Assembly (NCBI GenBank): GCA_007376385.1
Contig: VMGC01000002.1
Coordinates: 136,372 to 200,371, forward strand
DNA: 64,000 nucleotides
Origin: Parcubacteria group bacterium Gr01-1014_8
GTDB lineage: Bacteria; Patescibacteriota; Minisyncoccia; Phycocordibacterales; UBA2100
Direction: 5' to 3'
Shown: in pieces, positions 3,079 to 60,768 of the stretch
How positions within the stretch are numbered: the first letter of the stretch is position 1
Layout: every line of letters begins with the position of its first letter
Notes under the pieces: model-generated
Seen by the model: the letters and a program-made list of their open reading frames with translations, nothing else
Told to the model about the DNA's origin: nothing
The model's database searches: none
Made by a program: the position numbers and the translations under genes

Positions 3079-4074
3079 ATGTCTTTACAATCAATCGCAA
3101 AGCAGATGGTCGCAAAGGGAAAGGGCATCCTCGCAGCGGACGAAAGTTCGGGAACGATAGAGAGGAAGTTTGCGAAAGTCGGACTGACTTCGACAGAAGA
3201 TAATCGGCGGGCGTATCGCGGAATGCTTTTTACCTCGCCAGGTATTGGAAACTATATTTCGGGAGCCATCCTTTTTGATGAAACGATAAAGCAAAAGGCG
3301 CCCGACGGCCGCACAATGGTCTCCATTCTGGAAGCGGAAGGAATCCTGCCGGGCATAAAAGTCGACCAAGGTACGAAGGATATGGAGGGTTCGCCGGGCG
3401 AGAAGATCACCAAAGGGCTCGACGGACTTGGCGAACGTCTAAAAGAATATGCAACGTTGGGAGCAAAATTTGCGAAGTGGAGATCGGTCATTACGATAGG
3501 AAACGGTATCCCGACCGATGCAAACATCAAACAGCAAACAAAAGATTTGGCTGCGTACGCGCTGGAGTGCCAGAAAGCCGGCATTGTTCCGATGGTTGAG
3601 CCGGAAGTACTCATGGATGGCGGCCACACGATTGAAAGATGTGTTGAGGCAAGTGAAAAGACGCTCACTGCACTTTTTGAAGAGCTGAAGGCAGCAGGGG
3701 TAGATATATCGGGGACTATTCTCAAGACGAACATGATGGTTCCCGGCAAGGAGAGCGGTACGAGGGCAACACCAGAACAAGTGGCGGATGCGACTGTCGC
3801 CGTATTCAAGAAAGTTCTTCCAAATGATCTGCCAGGTCAGGCATTCCTATCTGGCGGGCAGGAAGATGTGGAAGCGACAGAGAATTTGAATGCCATCAAC
3901 AAAAAGGGACCTTTCCCCTGGAATCTTTCATTCTCATATGGCCGCGCACTTCAAGATTCGGCGCTCAAGGCATGGAACGGAAAATCAGAAAATATCATCG
4001 CTGCGCAACAGGTGTTTCTCAAGCGGGCAAAAATGAATTCACTTGCGACGGAAGGCAAATATAAAGGAGAGTAG
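3079..4074 (+). CDS. fba: Fructose-bisphosphate aldolase, class I
   Basis: GILAADESSGTIERKF class I aldolase motif; approximately 330 aa. Confidence 0.85.
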   Translation: MSLQSIAKQMVAKGKGILAADESSGTIERKFAKVGLTSTEDNRRAYRGMLFTSPGIGNYISGAILFDETIKQKAPDGRTMVSILEAEGILPGIKVDQGTKDMEGSPGEKITKGLDGLGERLKEYATLGAKFAKWRSVITIGNGIPTDANIKQQTKDLAAYALECQKAGIVPMVEPEVLMDGGHTIERCVEASEKTLTALFEELKAAGVDISGTILKTNMMVPGKESGTRATPEQVADATVAVFKKVLPNDLPGQAFLSGGQEDVEATENLNAINKKGPFPWNLSFSYGRALQDSALKAWNGKSENIIAAQQVFLKRAKMNSLATEGKYKGE

Positions 4075-26788: not shown

Positions 26789-27820
26789 CTACCGCGCTCG
26801 CGGGATGCCTCCAGTGTCAACAGACTGCCCGTCAGTGGATAGAGCAGGCTCTGATACCGATGGTTCGCTCGCCGGCGTTCCGCCGGTTCCTTCTGCGCTG
26901 GTCGTCGTTGCTTCGACTATCGAAGGAGTACCCACGGTAGAATTTGTGGATCGGTTTGCTTTTGGTGCAGCCTTTGAGGGCGCACTTGGCACTAGAGGCT
27001 CATTTATTTCAGGTAATTGCTCTGTCTCCTCCATCACACGGGATGGATCCATGGGCTCTTCCTCTGGGAGAGCAGTCTGGATGCCGAGCATCAGACCAGC
27101 ACCGACGAGACCGGCAAGAATGTGCATATATGTGCCTCCGTTGCTCCGAACTGACGCGAGCGCGTGGGGCAAGAGGTCATGCAAGACAACAGACATAAAT
27201 CCTCCGGCGGCTATACCAGAAAATAGTGCGACGATCCAAGTCACTGATGACAGTGTGCTTGCAAGGAAAAAGCCGATGAGAATGGTGGAGGAAACGAGAA
27301 AACTCCGGGTCAGGGCTCCTTTATTGGAATATCCAGCCCCGCGTAGCACAAAGTACTCTGAGACCTCCTGCACCGTCTCATGGAGAACGACGCCGAGCGT
27401 TGCTGCAAGGCCGATGTACCAATTCGTCTCAAAAGCACCCACAAGCAGAATACCGTCCCCAATGTTATGCAGAGCGTCGCTAAAGAGCACGCTACGACCC
27501 TCTATGGGAGTGTGAGTGTGACTATTGTCAACGTCGTGGTGGTGGTGCTTTGTTGGAAAAATATAGTGAATTCCTTCCATAAGCGTTGCACCGATAAGTA
27601 CCGATATGACAGCGACCACCCAGCCGCCTGCGCGTACGGCCTCCGATGCAAGGTCAAATGCGACAAGAACAAACACGCCAGCAGAAAAGGTTGCCAAATA
27701 GGTCAGATATCGTTGCATCCACTGTCCCAGTTTTCCTGCGGAAAAGATGACCCCAATAAGAGATATCAGCATGACAAGAAGCGATGCGAGAAAAGCAGCG
27801 CTCGCAGCTGAAAAGTCCAT
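26789..27820 (-). CDS. ZIP-family divalent metal transporter with an approximately 90-aa Ser/Thr/Pro/Ala-rich C-terminal tail
   Basis: ZIP helices with the HNIGDG...GVVLHE pattern and a His-rich loop (HHHHDVDNSHTH); TACACT lies 10 nt upstream of the ATG. Confidence 0.8.
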   Translation of the reverse strand: MDFSAASAAFLASLLVMLISLIGVIFSAGKLGQWMQRYLTYLATFSAGVFVLVAFDLASEAVRAGGWVVAVISVLIGATLMEGIHYIFPTKHHHHDVDNSHTHTPIEGRSVLFSDALHNIGDGILLVGAFETNWYIGLAATLGVVLHETVQEVSEYFVLRGAGYSNKGALTRSFLVSSTILIGFFLASTLSSVTWIVALFSGIAAGGFMSVVLHDLLPHALASVRSNGGTYMHILAGLVGAGLMLGIQTALPEEEPMDPSRVMEETEQLPEINEPLVPSAPSKAAPKANRSTNSTVGTPSIVEATTTSAEGTGGTPASEPSVSEPALSTDGQSVDTGGIPRAR

Positions 27821-27832
27821 AATGGGTGTGAG

Positions 27833-27939
27833 TGTACCCCATGAGATAAGGACCCGCTATAGGCTATTCACAGGAAGCTACTTTTTGAAAGAAGAATTAC
27901 TCTAGCGAACGCCACCCGGTCTATCTCACGGGGTGTACC
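27833..27939. promoter_or_regulatory. Inverted pair of the TATCTCAYGGGGT(A/G)TAC motif (RC copy at 27833-27847, direct copy at 27923-27939) plus the direct repeat GGCTATTCACAG(G)AAG (27871-27889 and 27961-27977); the left copy doubles as the -10 region of the ZIP gene
   Basis: Read directly; the same motif pair is found at 52979-53085 and 60663-60768. Confidence 0.5.
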
Positions 27940-28090
27940 CCAGAGAGTAAAGACTCGCTACCGGCTATTCACAGAAGATATGCTGACAACAAAGTATGCA
28001 CATCATGCGGACCGTTTGCCTCTATCTACTATTGACACAGGGCCGGGTATGTATCCGAGTATTTTCCTTAAAACTTGACGGAACAAGTGA

Positions 28091-28128
28091 AATGTCCGAT
28101 AGGAATGTCCATGAGGATGTCTGATGGG
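28091..28128. repeat. Three tandem 13-bp units (AATGTCCGATAGG / AATGTCCATGAGG / ATGTCTGATGGG) in a GACAG/TTGACAG-rich 520-bp intergenic region
   Basis: Read directly. Confidence 0.6.
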
Positions 28129-28346
28129 ACAGGTTGATGATCAGAGCTGCCTTAGTAAGGGACAGACCGACAGAATGGACTGGATATAGGACGTCATGTA
28201 TGCCGGAATTGACAGTCAGTAAAATTGTGTTGTTTCGGACATTTTATCGTCAACTTTCGTTGACAGGGATTGTACCGCGCGTACTGTTACGGACAGCGCT
28301 CTTTTAATTTACGCTATTACTAAAGATTAATTATAAATACGAGCAT

Positions 28347-29606
28347 ATGACGTTGTTACGTTTGGCACGTGTGGGAGGTGTTGCGGCTTTTGCTGTTCTC
28401 TTGTTCACACTCGTTTCGTTTGTGGGAAACCAGCGTCTTGCTTACGCAGATGAGGTGCCCGTTTCGGGCTCTGACATTGTGTGCGACACGTATCGTCAAC
28501 TGCAGGAACAGGGATTGCCGATCCCTCCAGGACTCGATGTGAGCGGTTGTGAAGGAGGTGGGGGAGGCGGCGGTGGTGGCGAACCGCCACTACCAACGGT
28601 TACAGAGTGCATAGACGGTATTGATAACGACGGAGATGGACGTACCGATTTTCTTCCGATATACGGCGACCCCGATTGTGATAACTTCTCTGATGATAGC
28701 GAGGCGGCGAGCGGAGGAGGCGGCGGTGGCGGTTCTACTCCAGCATGTGCCGATGGCATTGATAACGACGGCGATGGGCTCGTAGATAGTGTTGACCCGG
28801 GCTGCTCAGACACTTCCGATACTGACGAGGCCGATCCTACGGGGGGCGGCGTAGGAGGTGGTGGAGGTGGCGGAGGCGGAGGCCCCGCAGCGGCGTGCGA
28901 GGACAGCATAGACAATGACCTCGATGGTCTTAAAGACATGCAAGACCCAGGGTGTGAAAATGCTTCTGACAACGACGAAACCAACGGTTCTGGTGGAGGA
29001 GGAGGCGGCGGGGGAGGTGGCGAGGCAGCGACGACAACGGCACCAACTCCAGAAATTCTCGGCGCATCAACGCCAGCACAGGAACTTTCGTGCGACTCCT
29101 ACCTGACGGCATTCATTCGCTTCGGCGGAAAGAATGATGCAGACCAGGTTATGCGCCTCCAGAAAGTACTCAAAGATTACGAGAAGGCGGATGTGAATGA
29201 AAATGGTACCTACGATGCTGCAACTCTCAAGGCAGTACATGCATTCCAAACAAAGTATGCCGATGAAATTCTTACACCATGGGGTATCAAGAGCTCGACA
29301 GGCTATGTGTATCTCACGACGCGAAAGAAAGTGAATGAAATTCGGTGCGAGAATAAGAAGACATTTCCGCTTTCGGAAGAAGAACAGAAGAAAGTCGAGG
29401 AAACACGGGTTTCTGCGGCAGTCAGGGACATCGGCACAGACGCATCTCCCGCAAAACCAGCGGAGCCAGCAAAACCTGCAGTAGTAAAAGCTAAAGATGT
29501 AACGGACAGGACCGCCGATTCATCGTCAAAAGACGAGACAGTGCAGGTGAGCGGATTGAAGAGGGTGTGGGATTTCCTCGGCAGAATGTTCAACAGAGCG
29601 CGCTAA
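28347..29606 (+). CDS. Secreted protein with four C-x-DGIDNDGDG-x-D...DPGC Ca/metal-binding repeats (MopE-like) separated by poly-Gly linkers, plus a C-terminal peptidoglycan-binding (PG_binding_1-like) domain
   Basis: Signal/TM N-terminus; repeats TECIDGIDNDGDGRTD, ACADGIDNDGDGLVD, ACEDSIDNDLDGLKD; G8-12 runs; C-terminus LQKVLKDY...TLKAVHAFQTKYADEILTPWGIKSSTGYVY. Confidence 0.7.
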   Translation: MTLLRLARVGGVAAFAVLLFTLVSFVGNQRLAYADEVPVSGSDIVCDTYRQLQEQGLPIPPGLDVSGCEGGGGGGGGGEPPLPTVTECIDGIDNDGDGRTDFLPIYGDPDCDNFSDDSEAASGGGGGGGSTPACADGIDNDGDGLVDSVDPGCSDTSDTDEADPTGGGVGGGGGGGGGGPAAACEDSIDNDLDGLKDMQDPGCENASDNDETNGSGGGGGGGGGGEAATTTAPTPEILGASTPAQELSCDSYLTAFIRFGGKNDADQVMRLQKVLKDYEKADVNENGTYDAATLKAVHAFQTKYADEILTPWGIKSSTGYVYLTTRKKVNEIRCENKKTFPLSEEEQKKVEETRVSAAVRDIGTDASPAKPAEPAKPAVVKAKDVTDRTADSSSKDETVQVSGLKRVWDFLGRMFNRAR

Positions 29607-29884
29607 ACGAAATCAAATCGTACAGAAACGACGCCATATTCTGGCGTCTTTTTTGTCCTATACCAACTATGACACTCTGTCCTTAGTGGTGCGCATAGAT
29701 TCTGCAGCGTTGACAATAATGGACGGACTTTGTACGATGCGCGCCGTTAGAGACAAACATCTCCCGTTCCTTGTCATTTTTTGTAGGAGGTCAGGGCGGG
29801 CCCAAAGCCGACAGCTTTCACGCTGGTTTCCCTAGGTTTTGGGCCCACCCAGGATTCCTACATGATCACGTAAAATATTATACA

Positions 29885-29922
29885 GGGAAGATAAAAAAGG
29901 CCGCGTTGAGCGGTTTTTTTAT
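29885..29922. terminator. Bidirectional terminator-like hairpin (AAAAAAGGCCGCGTTGAGCGGTTTTTTT)
   Basis: A-run/stem/T-run read directly. Confidence 0.5.
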
Positions 29923-29961
29923 TGGCGACGTAGAGCGAGTGAAATGAACGTGTACTCATGT

Positions 29962-30033
29962 TCATTTCCGAGCCGAGGAGCCAACATAGGGTCGAATGCC
30001 CCGCGGCTTGCCCGCGGAATGAATACCCTTTAT
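29962..30033. repeat. Dispersed palindromic repeat, copy 3 (most diverged)
   Basis: ATTTCCGAGCCGAGGAGCCAACATAGGGTCGAATGCC...CCTTTAT. Confidence 0.5.
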
Positions 30034-30458
30034 TGCAACTCATTATAAAAAAATATCAATGGTGTTTGACAACAAGCATGAATACGTATCGAAATACTTT
30101 TCCACATGGCTAATTCATTGACACTCCACGAGAACGCGCGATAATTCGCCTACGTTTCGTCGCGTGCGCAAAATGCGATAAAGCGAGGGGAACCAGCGGA
30201 CAATATGTCCGTTGAGAACATTTTTTTTACTCACAGCTGTCTTTTTGAAATGAAGAGACGAGGCATCGCTGACCGTGATGCGTCGTTTTTTATTATGCAA
30301 ATGGACGACTGAAGTCCATGGAGCGGCTTATTTCCATGAAATGAGCCGCTCCGTGAACTGCAAGGTTCATGAGAAAGGTCGAGTTCTGCATTGCGCCGTC
30401 CGTACGGAGGCACAATGTCAGGTTTATCAAAACTTATCAACATGAAAAATTCAAAGAT

Positions 30459-37524: not shown

Positions 37525-37695
37525 ACCACTCCTTCGGGGTTGGGTGAAAGTCCCAATCGGCGGTATAGCCCGCGAGTTCTTAGGGACACGATTTGGTGAG
37601 ATTCCAAAGCCGACCGTACAGTCGGGATGAAAGAAGGAAGCGAGGCACCCTTGTTGGATGCTTGCGTGGTAACCCCGATGGATCGGGGTTTTTTA
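37525..37695 (+). ncRNA. FMN riboswitch (RFN element) with a terminator expression platform (AACCCCGATGGATCGGGGTTTTTT at 37671-37694)
   Basis: GGGTGAAAGTCCCAATCGGCGGTATAGCCCGCGAG...GATTTGGTGAGATTCCAAAGCCGAC...AGTCGGGATGAAAGAAGG matches conserved FMN aptamer blocks; upstream of the rib operon. Confidence 0.85.
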
Positions 37696-52978: not shown

Positions 52979-53085
52979 GTATACCCCGTGAGATAAAAAG
53001 GTCTCAAAATTATGCGGCAAGCGCACATGTACTCAAAATTCCTTTTTTTGCCTATAGTCACGGGCTATCTCATGGGGTATACTCG
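52979..53085. promoter_or_regulatory. Inverted pair of the TATCTCAYGGGGTATAC motif (RC copy at 52979-52995, direct copy at 53066-53085, which includes the TATACT -10) between the divergent Imm genes and uvrA
   Basis: Read directly; same architecture as at 27833-27939 and 60663-60768. Confidence 0.55.
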
Positions 53086-53092
53086 TCCGTGT

Positions 53093-53129
53093 CCCCGGTA
53101 CCACAAGTCCTTCGGACTTGACTACGGGG
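53093..53129 (+). ncRNA. Second copy of the 37-nt leader hairpin motif (CCCCGGUACCACAAGUCCUUCGGACUUGACUACGGGG) in the uvrA 5' UTR, followed by a second hairpin (CCCCTCG...CGAGGGG)
   Basis: Paralogous to 23009-23045 with a compensatory C:G to U:A change in the stem. Confidence 0.5.
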
Positions 53130-53173
53130 CAGGTAACCCCTCGGACAAGACGAGGGGCGAGGCTATTTGCATC

Positions 53174-55798
53174 ATGATAGAATCATCAAAAAATTCAGAA
53201 GGGCCAGGCAAGATCATCGTAAAGGGGGCGAGGACGCATAACTTAAAAAATATCAGCGTCGAGATACCTCGTAATAAAATGGTCGTCTTTACGGGGCTCT
53301 CGGGAAGCGGGAAATCGTCGCTGGCATTCGACACAATTTTTGCTGAAGGCCAGCGTAAGTACGTGGAATCGCTTTCCGCTTACGCGAGGCAGTTCTTACG
53401 TCAAATGCAAAAGCCCGATGTTGACGAGATCAGCGGTCTTTCTCCTGCCATCTCTATCGACCAAAAAAGCCGCTCAAATAATCCGCGCTCTACCGTTGCG
53501 ACGATAACGGAAATTTACGATTACCTGCGCGTACTGTACTCGCGTGTCGGACATCCCCACTGTCCCGTCTGCGGCCGAATAGTAAAAAAAATGTCGAATG
53601 AGGAAATTCTTGAGACCGTTTTGAAGGTAGTCGATGCAGCAAAAGCTTCAAAAAATGTCCCCAAGGGTAAGCACACGAAGGGAGTAACGGACGCAAAGGT
53701 ACGCATAACCGCTCCGGTTGTCGTCGGACGAAAGGGTGAATATTACCAGCTTCTGTACGACATGTTGAACAAGGGTTTTGAGAAAGTCATCATCGATGGT
53801 GAGGAGAAATCACTACGTGAGCGCATTGAGCTAAAAAAACATTTCAAGCACGATATAGATGTCGTTGTTGATGAGATATTCGTGAGCGAGTTCAAGGATG
53901 ATGCGAAAGGCTCTCGCGAACGAGCAAGTGAATCCATCGAGCGCGCGCTCCATGAAGCCGAGGGTCTCGTAAAAATAATCGATCCTGAGGGCGGTGCGCA
54001 TATCGTATCCGCAAAATTCATGTGTCCGTATGATGGCTTTTCATTTCCCGAAGTTGAACCTCGGCTTTTTTCGTTCAATTCTCCATACGGAGCCTGTCCC
54101 ACGTGCAATGGCTTAGGAACCAAATATTTTTTTGGAGATGAGCAGTGCGATACATGTCAGGGCGCACGTCTCCGAAGCGAAGCGTTGCATGTGTTTCTTG
54201 GGAGCGAAAAAAAGGAAGGCGCGCGGCAGAATATCGTGCAAGTAACAAGCATGTCTATAGCGAATGCTCGTAAATTCTTCGACGAGCTGGTATTAACGGA
54301 AAAGGAAAAAGAAATATCAAAAGTCGTCATAAAAGAAATAGTAAACCGGCTCCAATTCATGCTTGACGTCGGTATCGAATATCTGACGCTTGATAGACGG
54401 GCAAATACACTCTCTGGCGGCGAAGCGCAACGGATCCGCCTTGCTTCACAGCTTGGGAGCGGGCTTGTGGGTGCGCTCTATGTCCTCGATGAGCCGACCA
54501 TCGGTCTTCACCAAAAAGATAACGACAGGCTTATTGAGACGCTTAAACATCTCCGCGAACTGGGAAATACTGTGCTTGTCGTAGAACATGACGAGGATAC
54601 GATATTTGCCGCCGATTACATTGTTGATCTGGGACCCGGCGCCGGCACGCACGGCGGGGAAATAGTCGTAGCAGGCTGGCTTGAAGAACTCTTGACCGCC
54701 AAGACGAATAAGTCGGGCTCTAGGACCTTGGCGTATCTTCGCGACGAAACTCGGATCGAAATGCCGGAAAAACGACGTACGAACGACAAGGGAAAAATAA
54801 AAATTCGCGGAGCATCAAAATTCAATCTTGAAAAAGTGAATGTAGACGTGCCGCTTGGAAAATTAGTTGTTATCACCGGCGTTTCCGGTAGCGGGAAATC
54901 AACTTTTTTGTACGAAATCATGCATCGGAATTTACTCGCCAGATTCGATAAACGATTTCGAAATGCAAAAACCTACAACGCAGCAGAGTTTACTGGAACG
55001 GAATACCTGGGCCGTTCGATACTCATTGACCAGTCGCCGATAGGCAGGACGCCGCGCTCAAATCCCGCGACCTATACGGGGGCGTTCACGCATATTCGAG
55101 ACATGTTCGCGATGAGCGAAGAGGCGCGTGCGCGCGGATGGGGGCCAGGCAGGTTCAGTTTTAACCGCAAGGGCGGGCGATGCGAAGCGTGCGAAGGGAA
55201 CGGCATGGTCGCCGTTGAGATGCACTTTTTGCCGACGGTGTATGTCACGTGCGATGTGTGCGCAGGAAGACGTTTTATGAAGGAAACGCTTGAGGTGAAA
55301 TTCAAGAAAAAAAGCATACACGATATTTTGAAGATGACCGTCGAGGAAGCGCTTACGTTTTTTACTGACATTCCAGCCATATCAGACCGCCTTAAAACGT
55401 TGAGCAATGTTGGACTTGGTTATCTTCAATTGGGGCAGAGCGCAACGACACTCTCCGGCGGCGAAGCGCAACGCGTAAAAATAGCGTCGGAGTTGTATCG
55501 TCCGCATCAGACAAAAACGATGTACCTCTTGGACGAACCAACCGTCGGACTTCACTATGACGATGTGCAGAAGCTCATCGAAATTCTCCAACGACTCGTT
55601 GAGAGAGGGAACTCGGTAGTCGTTATCGAGCACAATCTTGACGTGTTGAAATCAGCGGATTACATCATTGATATGGGGCCGGAGGGTGGTGCTGGAGGTG
55701 GAAAAATTGTCGCGAAGGGTACGCCGGAGGAGGTATCCAAGACGGAAGGATCGCACACGGGCTACTATTTGCGGCGGGTTTTGAAAAAAAAGAAGTAG
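53174..55798 (+). CDS. uvrA: Excinuclease ABC subunit A
   Basis: Two ABC modules (GLSGSGKSSL, GVSGSGKST), LSGGEAQR signatures, Zn-finger Cys pairs. Confidence 0.9.
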   Translation: MIESSKNSEGPGKIIVKGARTHNLKNISVEIPRNKMVVFTGLSGSGKSSLAFDTIFAEGQRKYVESLSAYARQFLRQMQKPDVDEISGLSPAISIDQKSRSNNPRSTVATITEIYDYLRVLYSRVGHPHCPVCGRIVKKMSNEEILETVLKVVDAAKASKNVPKGKHTKGVTDAKVRITAPVVVGRKGEYYQLLYDMLNKGFEKVIIDGEEKSLRERIELKKHFKHDIDVVVDEIFVSEFKDDAKGSRERASESIERALHEAEGLVKIIDPEGGAHIVSAKFMCPYDGFSFPEVEPRLFSFNSPYGACPTCNGLGTKYFFGDEQCDTCQGARLRSEALHVFLGSEKKEGARQNIVQVTSMSIANARKFFDELVLTEKEKEISKVVIKEIVNRLQFMLDVGIEYLTLDRRANTLSGGEAQRIRLASQLGSGLVGALYVLDEPTIGLHQKDNDRLIETLKHLRELGNTVLVVEHDEDTIFAADYIVDLGPGAGTHGGEIVVAGWLEELLTAKTNKSGSRTLAYLRDETRIEMPEKRRTNDKGKIKIRGASKFNLEKVNVDVPLGKLVVITGVSGSGKSTFLYEIMHRNLLARFDKRFRNAKTYNAAEFTGTEYLGRSILIDQSPIGRTPRSNPATYTGAFTHIRDMFAMSEEARARGWGPGRFSFNRKGGRCEACEGNGMVAVEMHFLPTVYVTCDVCAGRRFMKETLEVKFKKKSIHDILKMTVEEALTFFTDIPAISDRLKTLSNVGLGYLQLGQSATTLSGGEAQRVKIASELYRPHQTKTMYLLDEPTVGLHYDDVQKLIEILQRLVERGNSVVVIEHNLDVLKSADYIIDMGPEGGAGGGKIVAKGTPEEVSKTEGSHTGYYLRRVLKKKK

Positions 55799-60433: not shown

Positions 60434-60662
60434 AGCTCGAAAGAGAGAAGGCGATCAGAAAAAAGCCCTCTTGGGGAGGGCAGAAAATCAGTCATTTTCA
60501 GGGGGATAGGACCCGCCTTCGCCAAAGGCTTCGACGAGGCGAAGTAAAAAAATACGCCCGAGCGGGCGCTTTCCGAATTCCGGACCTTAGGAGCCATTAA
60601 AAGTGCATTGTATCTGAATTTTTACGGCAGTCAAATCAGCTCGCGGTGGATATCCAGTTTCT

Positions 60663-60768
60663 GTATACCACATGAGATAAATAATTCGCGCCGTAAATCT
60701 GTCAAAATTCATCGCAAAATCGCGTGCATTTCGAAATTGTAATGTCTTTATCTCACGGGGTATACTCG
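60663..60768. promoter_or_regulatory. Inverted pair of the TATCTCAYG(G/T)GGTATAC motif between divergent carA and uvrC (RC copy at 60663-60679; direct copy at 60749-60768 with TATACT 7 nt before the uvrC ATG)
   Basis: Read directly. Confidence 0.55.

What the first reader, a model, noticed from the sequence alone, without database searches (positions are those of the whole stretch)
27821..28346. Unusually long, repeat-dense intergenic region upstream of the surface-protein cluster
This 526-bp non-coding stretch contains the inverted motif pair, three tandem 13-bp units (AATGTCYRWKRGG at 28091-28128) and at least six GACAG / TTGACAG elements. It also holds a GTCAAC-TTTC-GTTGAC palindrome (28248-28263) just before the ATG at 28347. 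Multiple direct repeats are typical of response-regulator (OmpR/PhoB-type) binding arrays. This region probably integrates regulation of both the ZIP transporter and the surface cluster.
Basis: seen in the sequence. Interest (0 to 1): 0.5.

Follow-up and report, generated by a model that had tools for sequence, protein, structure and literature searches.

The report
Composite promoter and operator-array intergenic region
This long gap between a zinc-transporter gene and a surface-protein gene in a groundwater Parcubacteria genome holds two separate things: a copy of a widespread paired promoter element I could not find described anywhere, and a locally conserved array of about nine likely binding sites for an unknown regulator.

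Summary
The 526-bp gap is non-coding, is the third longest of 56 gaps in the window, and has the window's highest density of GACAG/GGACA words. It has two parts.

**1. ZIP-proximal promoter module (27831-27949).** Two inverted copies of TATCTCAYGGGGTRTAC lie 90 bp apart.
- The same pair occurs twice more in the window and in more than 120 metagenome contigs.
- One arm ends in a complete -10 box (TATACT or TACACT) 6-10 nt before a start codon, which fits a leaderless promoter.
- The partner arm almost always lacks the final T.
- Arm spacing falls in three discrete classes (about 28, 52 and 89 bp). The sequence between the arms is not conserved.
- Downstream genes are functionally diverse, so this is a general promoter cassette, not a local regulator site.

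**2. GGACA site array (28090-28300).** Eight to nine T(W)AYGGACAK sites keep their order in two orthologous gaps (ZIP 61-64% identical).
- They also occur as a CGGACA-N3-TGTCCG palindrome in the next surface-gene gap.
- They are most likely operators for an unidentified regulator of the surface gene.

The OmpR/PhoB label is not supported: spacing and orientation do not fit. The 6-4-6 palindrome is not conserved. No conserved ORF, Rfam family or stable RNA fold was found.

The parts
27821..28346 (.). Whole divergent intergenic region between the ZIP transporter gene (minus) and the 419-aa surface-protein gene (plus).
   Evidence: ORF list and Pfam. Identical in two other assemblies. No conserved ORF. 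No Rfam match.
27831..27848 (-). Active arm of promoter module 1: TATCTCATGGGGTACAC plus T. The -10 box TACACT is at 27836-27831, 10 nt before the ZIP ATG (27820).
   Evidence: Motif search. TACACTCA is invariant in the orthologues L003 and L172, with the same 10-nt gap. Family statistics.
27849..27921 (.). Module interior, 73 nt. It is unconserved in sequence and belongs to the long spacing class (86-98 bp start to start).
27922..27941 (+). Silent arm of module 1: TATCTCACGGGGTGTAC followed by CCC, so there is no T to complete a -10 box. Together with 27933-27949 it forms a 28-bp palindrome.
27933..28039 (+). Decayed tandem copy of the module. Its arm is GTGTACCCCAGAGAGTA and a relic TATCTAC lies at 28023, 90 bp further on.
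   Evidence: Direct repeat D1, 79% over 42 nt. Unit alignment.
28091..28132 (.). Cluster of three to four sites.
   Evidence: TRF. Site list. The block GGACATTC(C)TA(T/A)CGGACA is conserved in L003 and L172, invariant apart from the two bracketed positions.
28156..28165 (+). Site TAAGGGACAG. It is conserved as TAAAGGACAG in L003 and L172.
28206..28215 (+). Site AATTGACAGT. The TTGACA(C/G) core is conserved in L003 and L172.
28233..28242 (+). Site TTTCGGACAT. The orthologues carry the same site in the opposite orientation.
28249..28264 (.). Only the right half, the site GTTGACAG, is conserved.
28287..28296 (+). Site TTACGGACAG, 51-60 nt upstream of the surface-gene ATG. It sits in a block of about 14 nt (CTGTCCGTAA-AGTA on the minus strand) that is identical in the three orthologues except at one position.
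28327..28346 (+). AT-rich region with -10-like sequence (TTATAAAT) 8-9 nt before the surface-gene ATG. This is the probable leaderless or short-leader promoter of that gene.
   Evidence: An AT-rich block is conserved in L003 and L172.
52979..53083 (.). Promoter module 2. The silent arm is 52979-52995. The active arm is 53066-53082 plus T and points towards uvrA.
60663..60766 (.). Promoter module 3. The silent arm is 60663-60679. The active arm is 60749-60765 plus T, with TATACT 7 nt before the uvrC ATG (60774).
30198..30210 (.). Palindromic full site GGACA-ATA-TGTCC in the next surface-cluster gap. It is the only GGACA-N2-4-TGTCC palindrome in the window.

Best explanation
The gap is a composite regulatory region with two independent layers.

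**A. ZIP promoter module**
- ZIP is transcribed from a near-leaderless promoter. Its -10 box (TACACT, 27836-27831, minus strand) is fused to a conserved 12-nt upstream element, TATCTCAYGGGG.
- That 18-nt unit is one arm of an inverted-repeat module. The second arm, 90 bp away, carries the same 17 nt but has C instead of the T that would complete a -10 box.
- This module is a general promoter cassette of a Parcubacteria lineage. One arm fires. The other is kept as a second copy of the upstream element.
- I infer that a protein, either a dedicated factor or the RNA polymerase holoenzyme, reads the 12-nt element in place of a -35 box and contacts both arms at a spacing set by the genome. The promoter role of the active arm rests on sequence statistics. 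The role of the partner arm is inference.

**B. GGACA site array**
- The stretch from 28090 to 28300 holds eight to nine T(W)AYGGACAK sites.
- These are most likely operators for an unidentified sequence-specific regulator, probably dimeric because full sites are inverted repeats.
- The array lies 51-255 nt upstream of the surface-protein gene and most likely controls that gene rather than ZIP.
For: **Motif frequency and conservation**
- The motif is found 6 times in the window against 0.12 expected. It always occurs as a minus-then-plus pair, 86-90 bp apart.
- More than 120 metagenome contigs carry it exactly.
- Information content is high only over the 17 nt plus T. There is no -35 signal.

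**Promoter role of the active arm**
- A start codon opening a long ORF lies 5-12 nt after the motif in 86 of 232 sites, against a 10% background. The peak is at 7-8 nt, and the fraction is 83 of 124 when the next base is T.
- Non-motif genes in this window also have TAnnnT 6-8 nt before the ATG and no Shine-Dalgarno sequence.
- Downstream genes span 81 Pfam families in 82 genes.

**Pairing rules**
- 73% of sites are paired, with spacing classes of 25-31, 50-55 and 86-98 bp. The class tends to be the same within a contig.
- 75 of 87 pairs have exactly one arm followed by T (p = 1e-11).
- The active arm has an adjacent start codon in 46 of 70 cases, the silent arm in 8 of 70.
- 39 arms face the 3' end of a gene within 60 nt of the arm, i.e. 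the neighbouring gene on that side converges on the arm rather than starting there.

**ZIP orthologues**
- The ZIP arm is conserved as TACACTCA plus a 10-nt gap in L003 and L172.

**Site array**
- GACAG is enriched about 13-fold.
- Order and flanks of the sites are conserved in L003 and L172.
- Palindromic full sites are found at window 30198, L172 2313 and L003 1896.
- Clusters occur only in the orthologous gaps within 1.07 Mb.
- ZIP orthologues lacking the surface-gene neighbour have no array.
Against: - There is no transcription start-site data. Promoter activity and leaderless translation are inferred from sequence statistics only.
- About a third of T-arms have no adjacent start codon.
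- No binding protein is identified for either motif.
- A conserved 12-nt element at -24 to -13 is not where sigma-70 region 4 binds, so 'read by the holoenzyme' is speculative.
- Spacing classes differ by 24 and 37 bp, which is not a clean multiple of the helical repeat. That is awkward for a simple looping model.
- Position 8 (Y) is C in one arm and T in the other in 67 of 87 pairs, and T/T occurs only once (p = 2.6e-8). My model does not explain this.
- The array's link to the surface gene rests on three orthologous loci plus one palindrome in the next gap.
Confidence: 0.6

Rival explanations
1. The direct repeats are an OmpR/PhoB-type response-regulator binding array that co-regulates the ZIP gene and the surface cluster.
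For: - CTGTC(A/C) resembles the Pho-box half-site CTGTCAT (from my knowledge of E. coli PhoB).
- There are many copies, several of them in direct orientation.
- The sites are conserved.
Against: - Site periodicity is 12-13 bp in the tandem block and 21-50 bp elsewhere, not 10-11 bp.
- Orientations are mixed and one site is flipped between orthologues.
- Full sites are inverted repeats.
- No response-regulator or histidine-kinase gene was found among the neighbours scanned.
- ZIP has its own promoter module about 270 bp from the array.
- ZIP orthologues without the surface gene lack the array.
Confidence: 0.15
2. The inverted-repeat module is a selfish repeat, similar to a MITE, a Correia element or a REP/BIME. 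It inserts into TATA in -10 boxes, duplicates the target, and incidentally leaves a working -10 box on the gene side.
For: - The arms look like 12-17-bp terminal inverted repeats.
- GTATAC is palindromic, so a TA or TATA target duplication cannot be excluded.
- The distal flank often shows G at -1 and T or G at -2, as an old extended -10 TG would.
- Tandem arrays exist that share the junction palindrome (window 27922-27949; L007, L119, L075).
- The asymmetry of one T arm per pair would follow automatically from insertion into a one-directional promoter.
Against: - In an all-against-all comparison of 76 interiors, only orthologous loci or tandem neighbours are similar. No interior recurs in an unrelated context.
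- The three modules in one genome have unrelated interiors.
- The arms are nearly invariant across distant lineages while interiors look random. That fits host selection on the arms better than transposition of a unit.
- No transposase gene was noticed beside the modules I inspected. This was not systematically tested.
Confidence: 0.12
3. The features act as RNA. The inverted arms form a hairpin in read-through transcripts that acts as a terminator, a processing site or a stabiliser. Alternatively, the GGACA region is a structured leader or a small RNA, for example a GGA-repeat protein sponge.
For: - Folding of 27815-28050 (minus strand) gives a z-score of -2.6, driven by the arm pairing.
- 39 arms face the 3' end of a gene within 60 nt.
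- GGA-containing repeats recall CsrA-type sponge RNAs (from my knowledge).
Against: - In C/T pairs, the G-U arrangement and the A-C mismatch arrangement fall on the gene-sense strand equally often: 23 against 23, or 32 against 26.
- No U-tract follows the arms.
- There is no Rfam hit at E <= 10.
- The array region folds no better than shuffled sequence: z = -0.15 on the plus strand and -1.8 on the minus strand.
- The RNAalifold covariation term is unfavourable and the predicted pairs merely join motif copies.
- One site is inverted between orthologues.
Confidence: 0.08
4. The arms are recombination sites. Either they flank an invertible promoter segment, or they are attC- or dif-like sites in an 11-6-11 layout for a site-specific recombinase.
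For: - The full palindrome TATCTCAYGGG-GTATAC-CCCRTGAGATA has the 11-6-11 layout of tyrosine-recombinase core sites.
- Inverted repeats flank a variable segment.
- The conserved mismatch at position 8 recalls structural marks in folded recombination sites.
Against: - Interiors of 8-14 bp are too short to invert.
- The asymmetry that decides promoter activity (T or C at position 18) lies outside the repeats, so inversion would change nothing.
- Flanking genes are dispersed housekeeping genes, not cassette arrays.
- No GTTRRRY/RYYYAAC cores are present.
- No integrase gene was seen near the three window modules.
Confidence: 0.03

Closest known systems
Leaderless, -10-only or extended -10 promoters (Actinobacteria, Deinococcus-Thermus)
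   Same: A TAnnnT box lies 6-8 nt before the start codon. There is no Shine-Dalgarno sequence and no conserved -35 box.
   Different: - An invariant 12-nt element (TATCTCAYGGGG) is fused upstream of the -10 box.
- An obligatory inverted partner copy sits at discrete distances.
- I know of neither feature in those groups, and sequence searches of the literature found nothing.
E. coli REP/BIME elements
   Same: - Short, highly conserved intergenic motifs occur as inverted pairs.
- The pairs come in two sequence variants (y/z there, C/T at position 8 here).
- Linker lengths are discrete, and tandem clusters sometimes occur.
   Different: - Each REP is itself a stem-loop beginning with GTAG. BIME linkers are conserved motifs.
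- REPs sit at 3' ends or between co-transcribed genes and are not promoters.
- Here the arm is not a palindrome on its own, interiors are unique, and one arm carries a -10 box next to a start codon.
Neisseria Correia elements (MITEs that carry promoters)
   Same: They are about 100-150 bp, have terminal inverted repeats, use a TA target, lie close to gene starts, and can supply promoters.
   Different: Correia copies share their interior sequence. Here the interiors are unrelated, even within one genome.
Pho box arrays (PhoB) and NarL heptamer arrays
   Same: Multiple short sites with a CTGTC(A/C)/GGACAG core are clustered upstream of a regulated gene. As with NarL, the arrangements are mixed, including inverted pairs.
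   Different: There is no 11-bp phasing as in Pho boxes, no TACYYMT heptamer, and no cognate regulator identified.
Deinococcus RDRM/DdrO and LexA boxes
   Same: A conserved motif overlaps the promoters of uvrA and uvrC, which prompted me to check this.
   Different: The motif precedes genes of 81 different Pfam families, so it does not mark a DNA-damage regulon. It is also not a simple 14-17-bp palindrome.

Membership tests
Sigma-70-type leaderless promoter | -10 hexamer TAnnnT placed so that transcription would start at or within a few nt of the start codon | tested here: met
   - ZIP: TACACT, then 10 nt, then ATG. uvrC: TATACT, then 7 nt, then ATG.
- Family-wide, the distance from the motif's last base (…TAC) to the start codon peaks at 7-8 nt, i.e. 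6-7 nt after the -10 box; 46 of 70 active arms fit.
Sigma-70-type leaderless promoter | Mapped transcription start and 5'-triphosphate end at the start codon | not testable with these tools
   No transcriptome data are available here.
Sigma-70-type promoter (canonical) | -35 hexamer 16-18 bp upstream of the -10 box | tested here: not met
   Information content is at most 0.2 bit at every position upstream of the motif. The consensus scan finds no ZIP-directed promoter.
OmpR/PhoB response-regulator binding array | Direct repeats with 10-11-bp periodicity, all in one orientation | tested here: not met
   Spacings are 12-13 bp, then 21-50 bp. Both orientations occur, and one site is flipped between orthologues.
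OmpR/PhoB response-regulator binding array | A cognate winged-helix response regulator is encoded in the genome and binds the sites | not testable with these tools
   Only 64 kb of the genome is available. Of its roughly 57 ORFs, 17 were scanned against Pfam and none is a response regulator. Binding needs an experiment.
MITE / Correia-like element | Copies share the internal sequence and occur in unrelated genomic contexts | tested here: not met
   All-against-all comparison of interiors found similarity only between orthologous or tandem copies.
MITE / Correia-like element | Terminal inverted repeats with a target-site duplication | tested here: inconclusive
   Inverted repeats are present. 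A TA or TATA duplication cannot be told apart from the palindromic GTATAC at both ends.
REP/BIME | Each unit is itself an imperfect palindrome with a 5' GTAG, and a RAYT transposase is present | tested here: not met
   The 17-nt arm has no internal dyad except GTATAC and no GTAG. RAYT presence was not tested.
Integron attC site | R''/R' cores RYYYAAC and GTTRRRY, cassette arrays, and an intI gene | tested here: not met
   The arm ends are GTATAC. The flanking genes are dispersed housekeeping genes.
Known structured RNA (Rfam) | Match to an Rfam covariance model | tested here: not met
   There is no hit in the gap at E <= 10. At gathering thresholds the window gives only an FMN riboswitch and a tRNA.

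The most novel reading that the evidence does not exclude
Parcubacteria of this lineage may use a dedicated, undescribed promoter-recognition system. In this reading, a factor (an unusual sigma domain or a global DNA-binding protein) reads the 12-nt element TATCTCAYGGGG in place of a -35 box. It needs a second, inverted and transcriptionally disabled copy at a genome-specific ruler distance of about 28, 52 or 89 bp, with a deliberate C/T asymmetry between the two copies. This would be a new bipartite architecture for bacterial housekeeping promoters.
Probability: 0.3. Interest if true: 0.75.

Novelty: new variant of a known kind. Interest (0 to 1): 0.55.

Why it matters
Almost nothing is known about how transcription starts in the Candidate Phyla Radiation (CPR), whose members are uncultured and have very few recognisable regulators.
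- **Promoter module.** This is an 18-nt signature found upstream of many unrelated genes. It has strict rules: one active arm, one disabled arm, discrete spacing, and C/T asymmetry between the arms.
  - It gives a direct way to predict start sites and operon starts in these genomes.
  - It points to an unidentified DNA-binding component that could be found by pull-down or by phylogenetic profiling.
- **GGACA array.** It marks a candidate regulon of cell-surface proteins. These are likely central to the attached, host-dependent lifestyle of these bacteria.
- **The original claim.** The result is more ordinary than proposed. The region is a regulatory gap with conserved operators, but nothing supports a PhoB-type mechanism.

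Tried and rejected
- **Riboswitch or known RNA in the ZIP leader.** Rfam gives no hit at E <= 10, and the whole-window gathering scan finds only an FMN riboswitch and a tRNA.
- **Hidden small protein.** The window ORFs of 42, 52 and 57 aa, and an 89-aa gene called in L172, are not conserved across the three orthologous gaps.
- **Structured RNA over the array.** Single-sequence folding z-scores are -0.15 and -1.8. RNAalifold only pairs motif copies, with an unfavourable covariation term.
- **LexA/SOS or DNA-damage operator.** I considered this because uvrA and uvrC carry the motif. I rejected it because the downstream genes span 81 Pfam families. The 2017 paper on the Patescibacteria SOS network is not held in the library, so its LexA motif could not be compared.
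- **Simple back-to-back divergent promoters.** Rejected because 75 of 87 pairs have only one competent -10 box, and because many of the arms that have no adjacent gene start face the 3' end of a neighbouring gene instead (39 arms within 60 nt of a gene end).
- **MITE family.** Rejected because the interiors are unique.
- **RNA-hairpin selection at position 8.** Rejected because there is no strand bias.
- **Zur box.** The ZIP orthologue in L175 sits next to a FUR-family gene, but I found no shared box with the window.
- **Searches that led nowhere.**
  - The first genome scan with single-sequence peptide patterns found nothing.
  - The P0121 locus has no upstream DNA.
  - Literature searches for the motif sequence gave only chance hits.

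Full report
**Source and setting**

The ZIP protein encoded at 26789-27820 (minus strand) is 100% identical to a protein of 'Parcubacteria group bacterium Gr01-1014_8'. The same gap, base for base, is present in two other assemblies.

The gap 27821-28346 separates the ZIP transporter gene (Pfam Zip) from a divergent 419-aa secreted protein. That protein has a weak PG_binding_1 match and glycine-rich repeats. With crude ORF calling, the gap is the third longest of 56 in the window, where the median is 34.5 bp.

**Checking the observation**

- The inverted pair is at 27836-27848 and 27922-27934.
- A 13-bp tandem array is at 28091-28129, but it is weak: 3.1 copies, 72% matches, score 41.
- There are six GACAG words against 0.47 expected, all on the plus strand. 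Including GGACA and TGTCC, this is the densest 300-bp stretch in the window.
- The 6-4-6 palindrome is at 28249-28264, one base off, and ends 83 nt before the ATG.

**What is not there**

- Rfam gives nothing in the gap, even at E <= 10. At gathering thresholds the window has only an FMN riboswitch and a tRNA.
- The small ORFs in the gap are not conserved in the orthologous gaps.
- The array region folds no better than shuffled sequence.
- The alignment fold only pairs motif copies with each other, and its covariation term is unfavourable.

**Layer 1: the inverted pair is a lineage-wide promoter module**

*Frequency.* The 17-mer TATCTCAYGGGGTRTAC occurs six times in the window against 0.12 expected. 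It always forms a minus-then-plus pair 86-90 bp apart: at 27832/27922, at 52979/53066 (between a small membrane-protein gene and uvrA), and at 60663/60749 (between carA and uvrC). The interiors of the three pairs are unrelated.

The motif was also found in a distant Patescibacteria genome, L007.

*Promoter signature.* I collected 232-247 sites; the count depends on whether 2 or 3 mismatches are allowed.
- Information content is high only across the 17 nt plus a following T. There is no -35 signal.
- A start codon opening a long ORF follows 5-12 nt after the motif in 86 of 232 sites, against a 10% background. The peak is at 7-8 nt.
- When the next base is T, which completes TATACT, the fraction is 83 of 124.
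- Ordinary genes in the window show the same arrangement: TAnnnT 6-8 nt before the ATG, and no Shine-Dalgarno sequence.

The motif's 3' end is therefore a -10 box, and the transcripts would be leaderless or nearly so.

*Not a regulon.* The genes served are diverse: 81 Pfam families among 82 genes, including PilM, release factors, RRF, FBPase and AcrB. This rules out a LexA-like or other dedicated regulon.

**The pairing follows strict rules**

- 73% of sites have an inverted partner upstream.
- Start-to-start spacing falls in three classes: 25-31, 50-55 (one case at 60) and 86-98 bp. The interiors are unconstrained in sequence.
- The spacing class tends to be the same within a contig. The window has 86, 87 and 90; L007 has 51 and 52; L134 has 25 and 26; one contig is mixed.
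- 75 of 87 pairs have exactly one arm followed by T. The other arm is usually followed by CCC, which completes the palindrome GGGGTATACCCC (p = 1e-11).
- The T-arm has an adjacent start codon in 46 of 70 cases. The other arm does so in 8 of 70, which is background level.
- Among all arms, 39 face the 3' end of a gene lying within 60 nt. These pairs are therefore not simply two divergent promoters.
- Position 8 is C in one arm and T in the other in 67 of 87 pairs, and T/T occurs once (p = 2.6e-8). There is no link to which arm is active or to strand. That argues against selection on an RNA hairpin, and it remains unexplained.
- An all-against-all comparison of 76 interiors finds similarity only between orthologous loci or tandem neighbours. 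The module is therefore not a MITE-like family with a transposing unit.
- Tandem arrays exist, in which neighbouring units share the junction palindrome (window 27922-27949; L007, L119, L075).

**The ZIP copy**

The active arm is on the minus strand at 27848-27831. Its -10 box, TACACT, lies 10 nt before the ATG.

In the two orthologous gaps, TACACTCA and the 10-nt gap are invariant. These are L003 (ZIP 61% identical) and L172 (64% identical). The distal arm and interior are not alignable between them.

L172 has a short-interior version in which both arms carry the same change, TATCTCC and GGAGATA.

**Layer 2: the GGACA array**

*Conservation.* From 28090 to 28300 there are eight to nine sites with consensus T(W)AYGGACAK.
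- Their order and flanks are conserved in L003 and L172.
- One site is in the opposite orientation in the orthologues, which fits DNA binding sites better than an RNA motif.
- L003 and L172 share the spacings 30, 23, 50 and 30 bp. The window has a 27-bp insertion between two of the sites.

*Full sites.* Full sites are inverted repeats.
- CGGACA-ATA-TGTCCG lies at 30198, in the next surface-cluster gap. It is the only such palindrome in the window.
- Similar palindromes occur in L172 and L003, and beside a homologous surface-protein gene in L177.

*Specificity.* In 1.07 Mb of related DNA, clusters of the 10-mer occur only in the orthologous gaps. More distant ZIP orthologues that lack the surface-gene neighbour have gaps of 22-62 bp and no array.

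The array therefore travels with the surface gene. The sites lie 51-255 nt upstream of its ATG. No regulator gene was found among the 17 window proteins scanned, which include the array's immediate neighbours.

**Mechanism proposed**

*ZIP.* Transcription of ZIP starts a few nucleotides before or at its ATG, from the TACACT box. The fused 12-nt element substitutes for a -35 box. It is read by a protein that also contacts the disabled partner arm at a distance characteristic of the genome. The first step rests on sequence statistics and conservation. The second step is inference.

*Surface gene.* It has its own AT-rich -10 region (28327-28339). An unidentified dimeric regulator most likely controls it by occupying the GGACA sites cooperatively.

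I give the composite explanation a confidence of 0.6. Broken down, that is about 0.8 for the promoter arm, 0.6 for the operator array, and 0.4 for the partner-arm role.

**Comparison with known systems**

- The promoter arm works like the leaderless -10-only promoters of Actinobacteria and Deinococcus. The invariant upstream element and the obligatory inverted partner are not features I know from those groups.
- The pairing rules recall E. coli BIMEs and Neisseria Correia elements, but the defining features of both are not met.
- The array resembles Pho-box or NarL-type site clusters in layout only.
- Literature searches for the motif sequence and for CPR promoter or leaderless work found no description.

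**Verdict**

The finding is real but its interpretation needs revision. The PhoB-type reading is not supported. Interest is 0.55, and I class it as a new variant of a known kind.

Noticed in passing
window 29790-29865 (plus strand), in the 762-bp gap 29607-30368; also L176 about 1005-1075 and L177 about 3790-3860: A conserved hairpin-type element (GGGCCCAAAGCCGACAGCTTTCACGCTGGTTTCCCTAGGTTTTGGGCCC) lies next to PG_binding-type surface genes. RNAalifold predicts 27 pairs, and 8 show compensatory changes among only three sequences. No Rfam family matches. It is a candidate new small structured RNA.
   Followed up: partly
window 60434-60662, minus strand: A leader of about 230 nt lies between the silent arm of module 3 and the carA start. 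It contains an intrinsic-terminator-like hairpin, GCGCCCGCTCGGGCG followed by a T-run, at about 60548-60580. This may be an attenuator or a small RNA upstream of carAB.
   Followed up: no
window 53083-53174: The true uvrA start appears to be about 53175 (MIESSKN...). The active arm of module 2 would then give an 85-90-nt GC-rich leader that could fold into several hairpins.
   Followed up: no
window, all operon-first genes (for example 4811, 12138, 15033, 18555, 22891, 46493, 55803, 62514): Most first genes have a TAnnnT box, often preceded by TGn, 6-8 nt before the start codon, and no Shine-Dalgarno sequence. Leaderless expression seems to be the norm in this organism.
   Followed up: partly
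window 37526-37642: An FMN riboswitch (104 bits) lies upstream of the riboflavin-synthesis genes.
   Followed up: no
L175 2016-2500: A ZIP orthologue (58% identical) lies divergent to a FUR-family gene across a 62-bp gap, so it is probably under Zur control. Its promoter carries a variant, GGGGATATATACT.
   Followed up: partly
L007 1880-2030: A tandem array of the module with a 62-bp period abuts a masked run of N in the stored genome record, so the full length of the array is unknown.
   Followed up: no
L172 2455-2490: In the ZIP orthologue L172, both arms carry the same substitution (TATCTCC and GGAGATA) and the interior is 12 nt. The two arms have changed in parallel.
   Followed up: partly
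window 28184-28201: The palindrome ATATAGGACGTCATGTAT, with a GACGTC core, lies inside a 27-bp insertion that is absent from both orthologous gaps.
   Followed up: no
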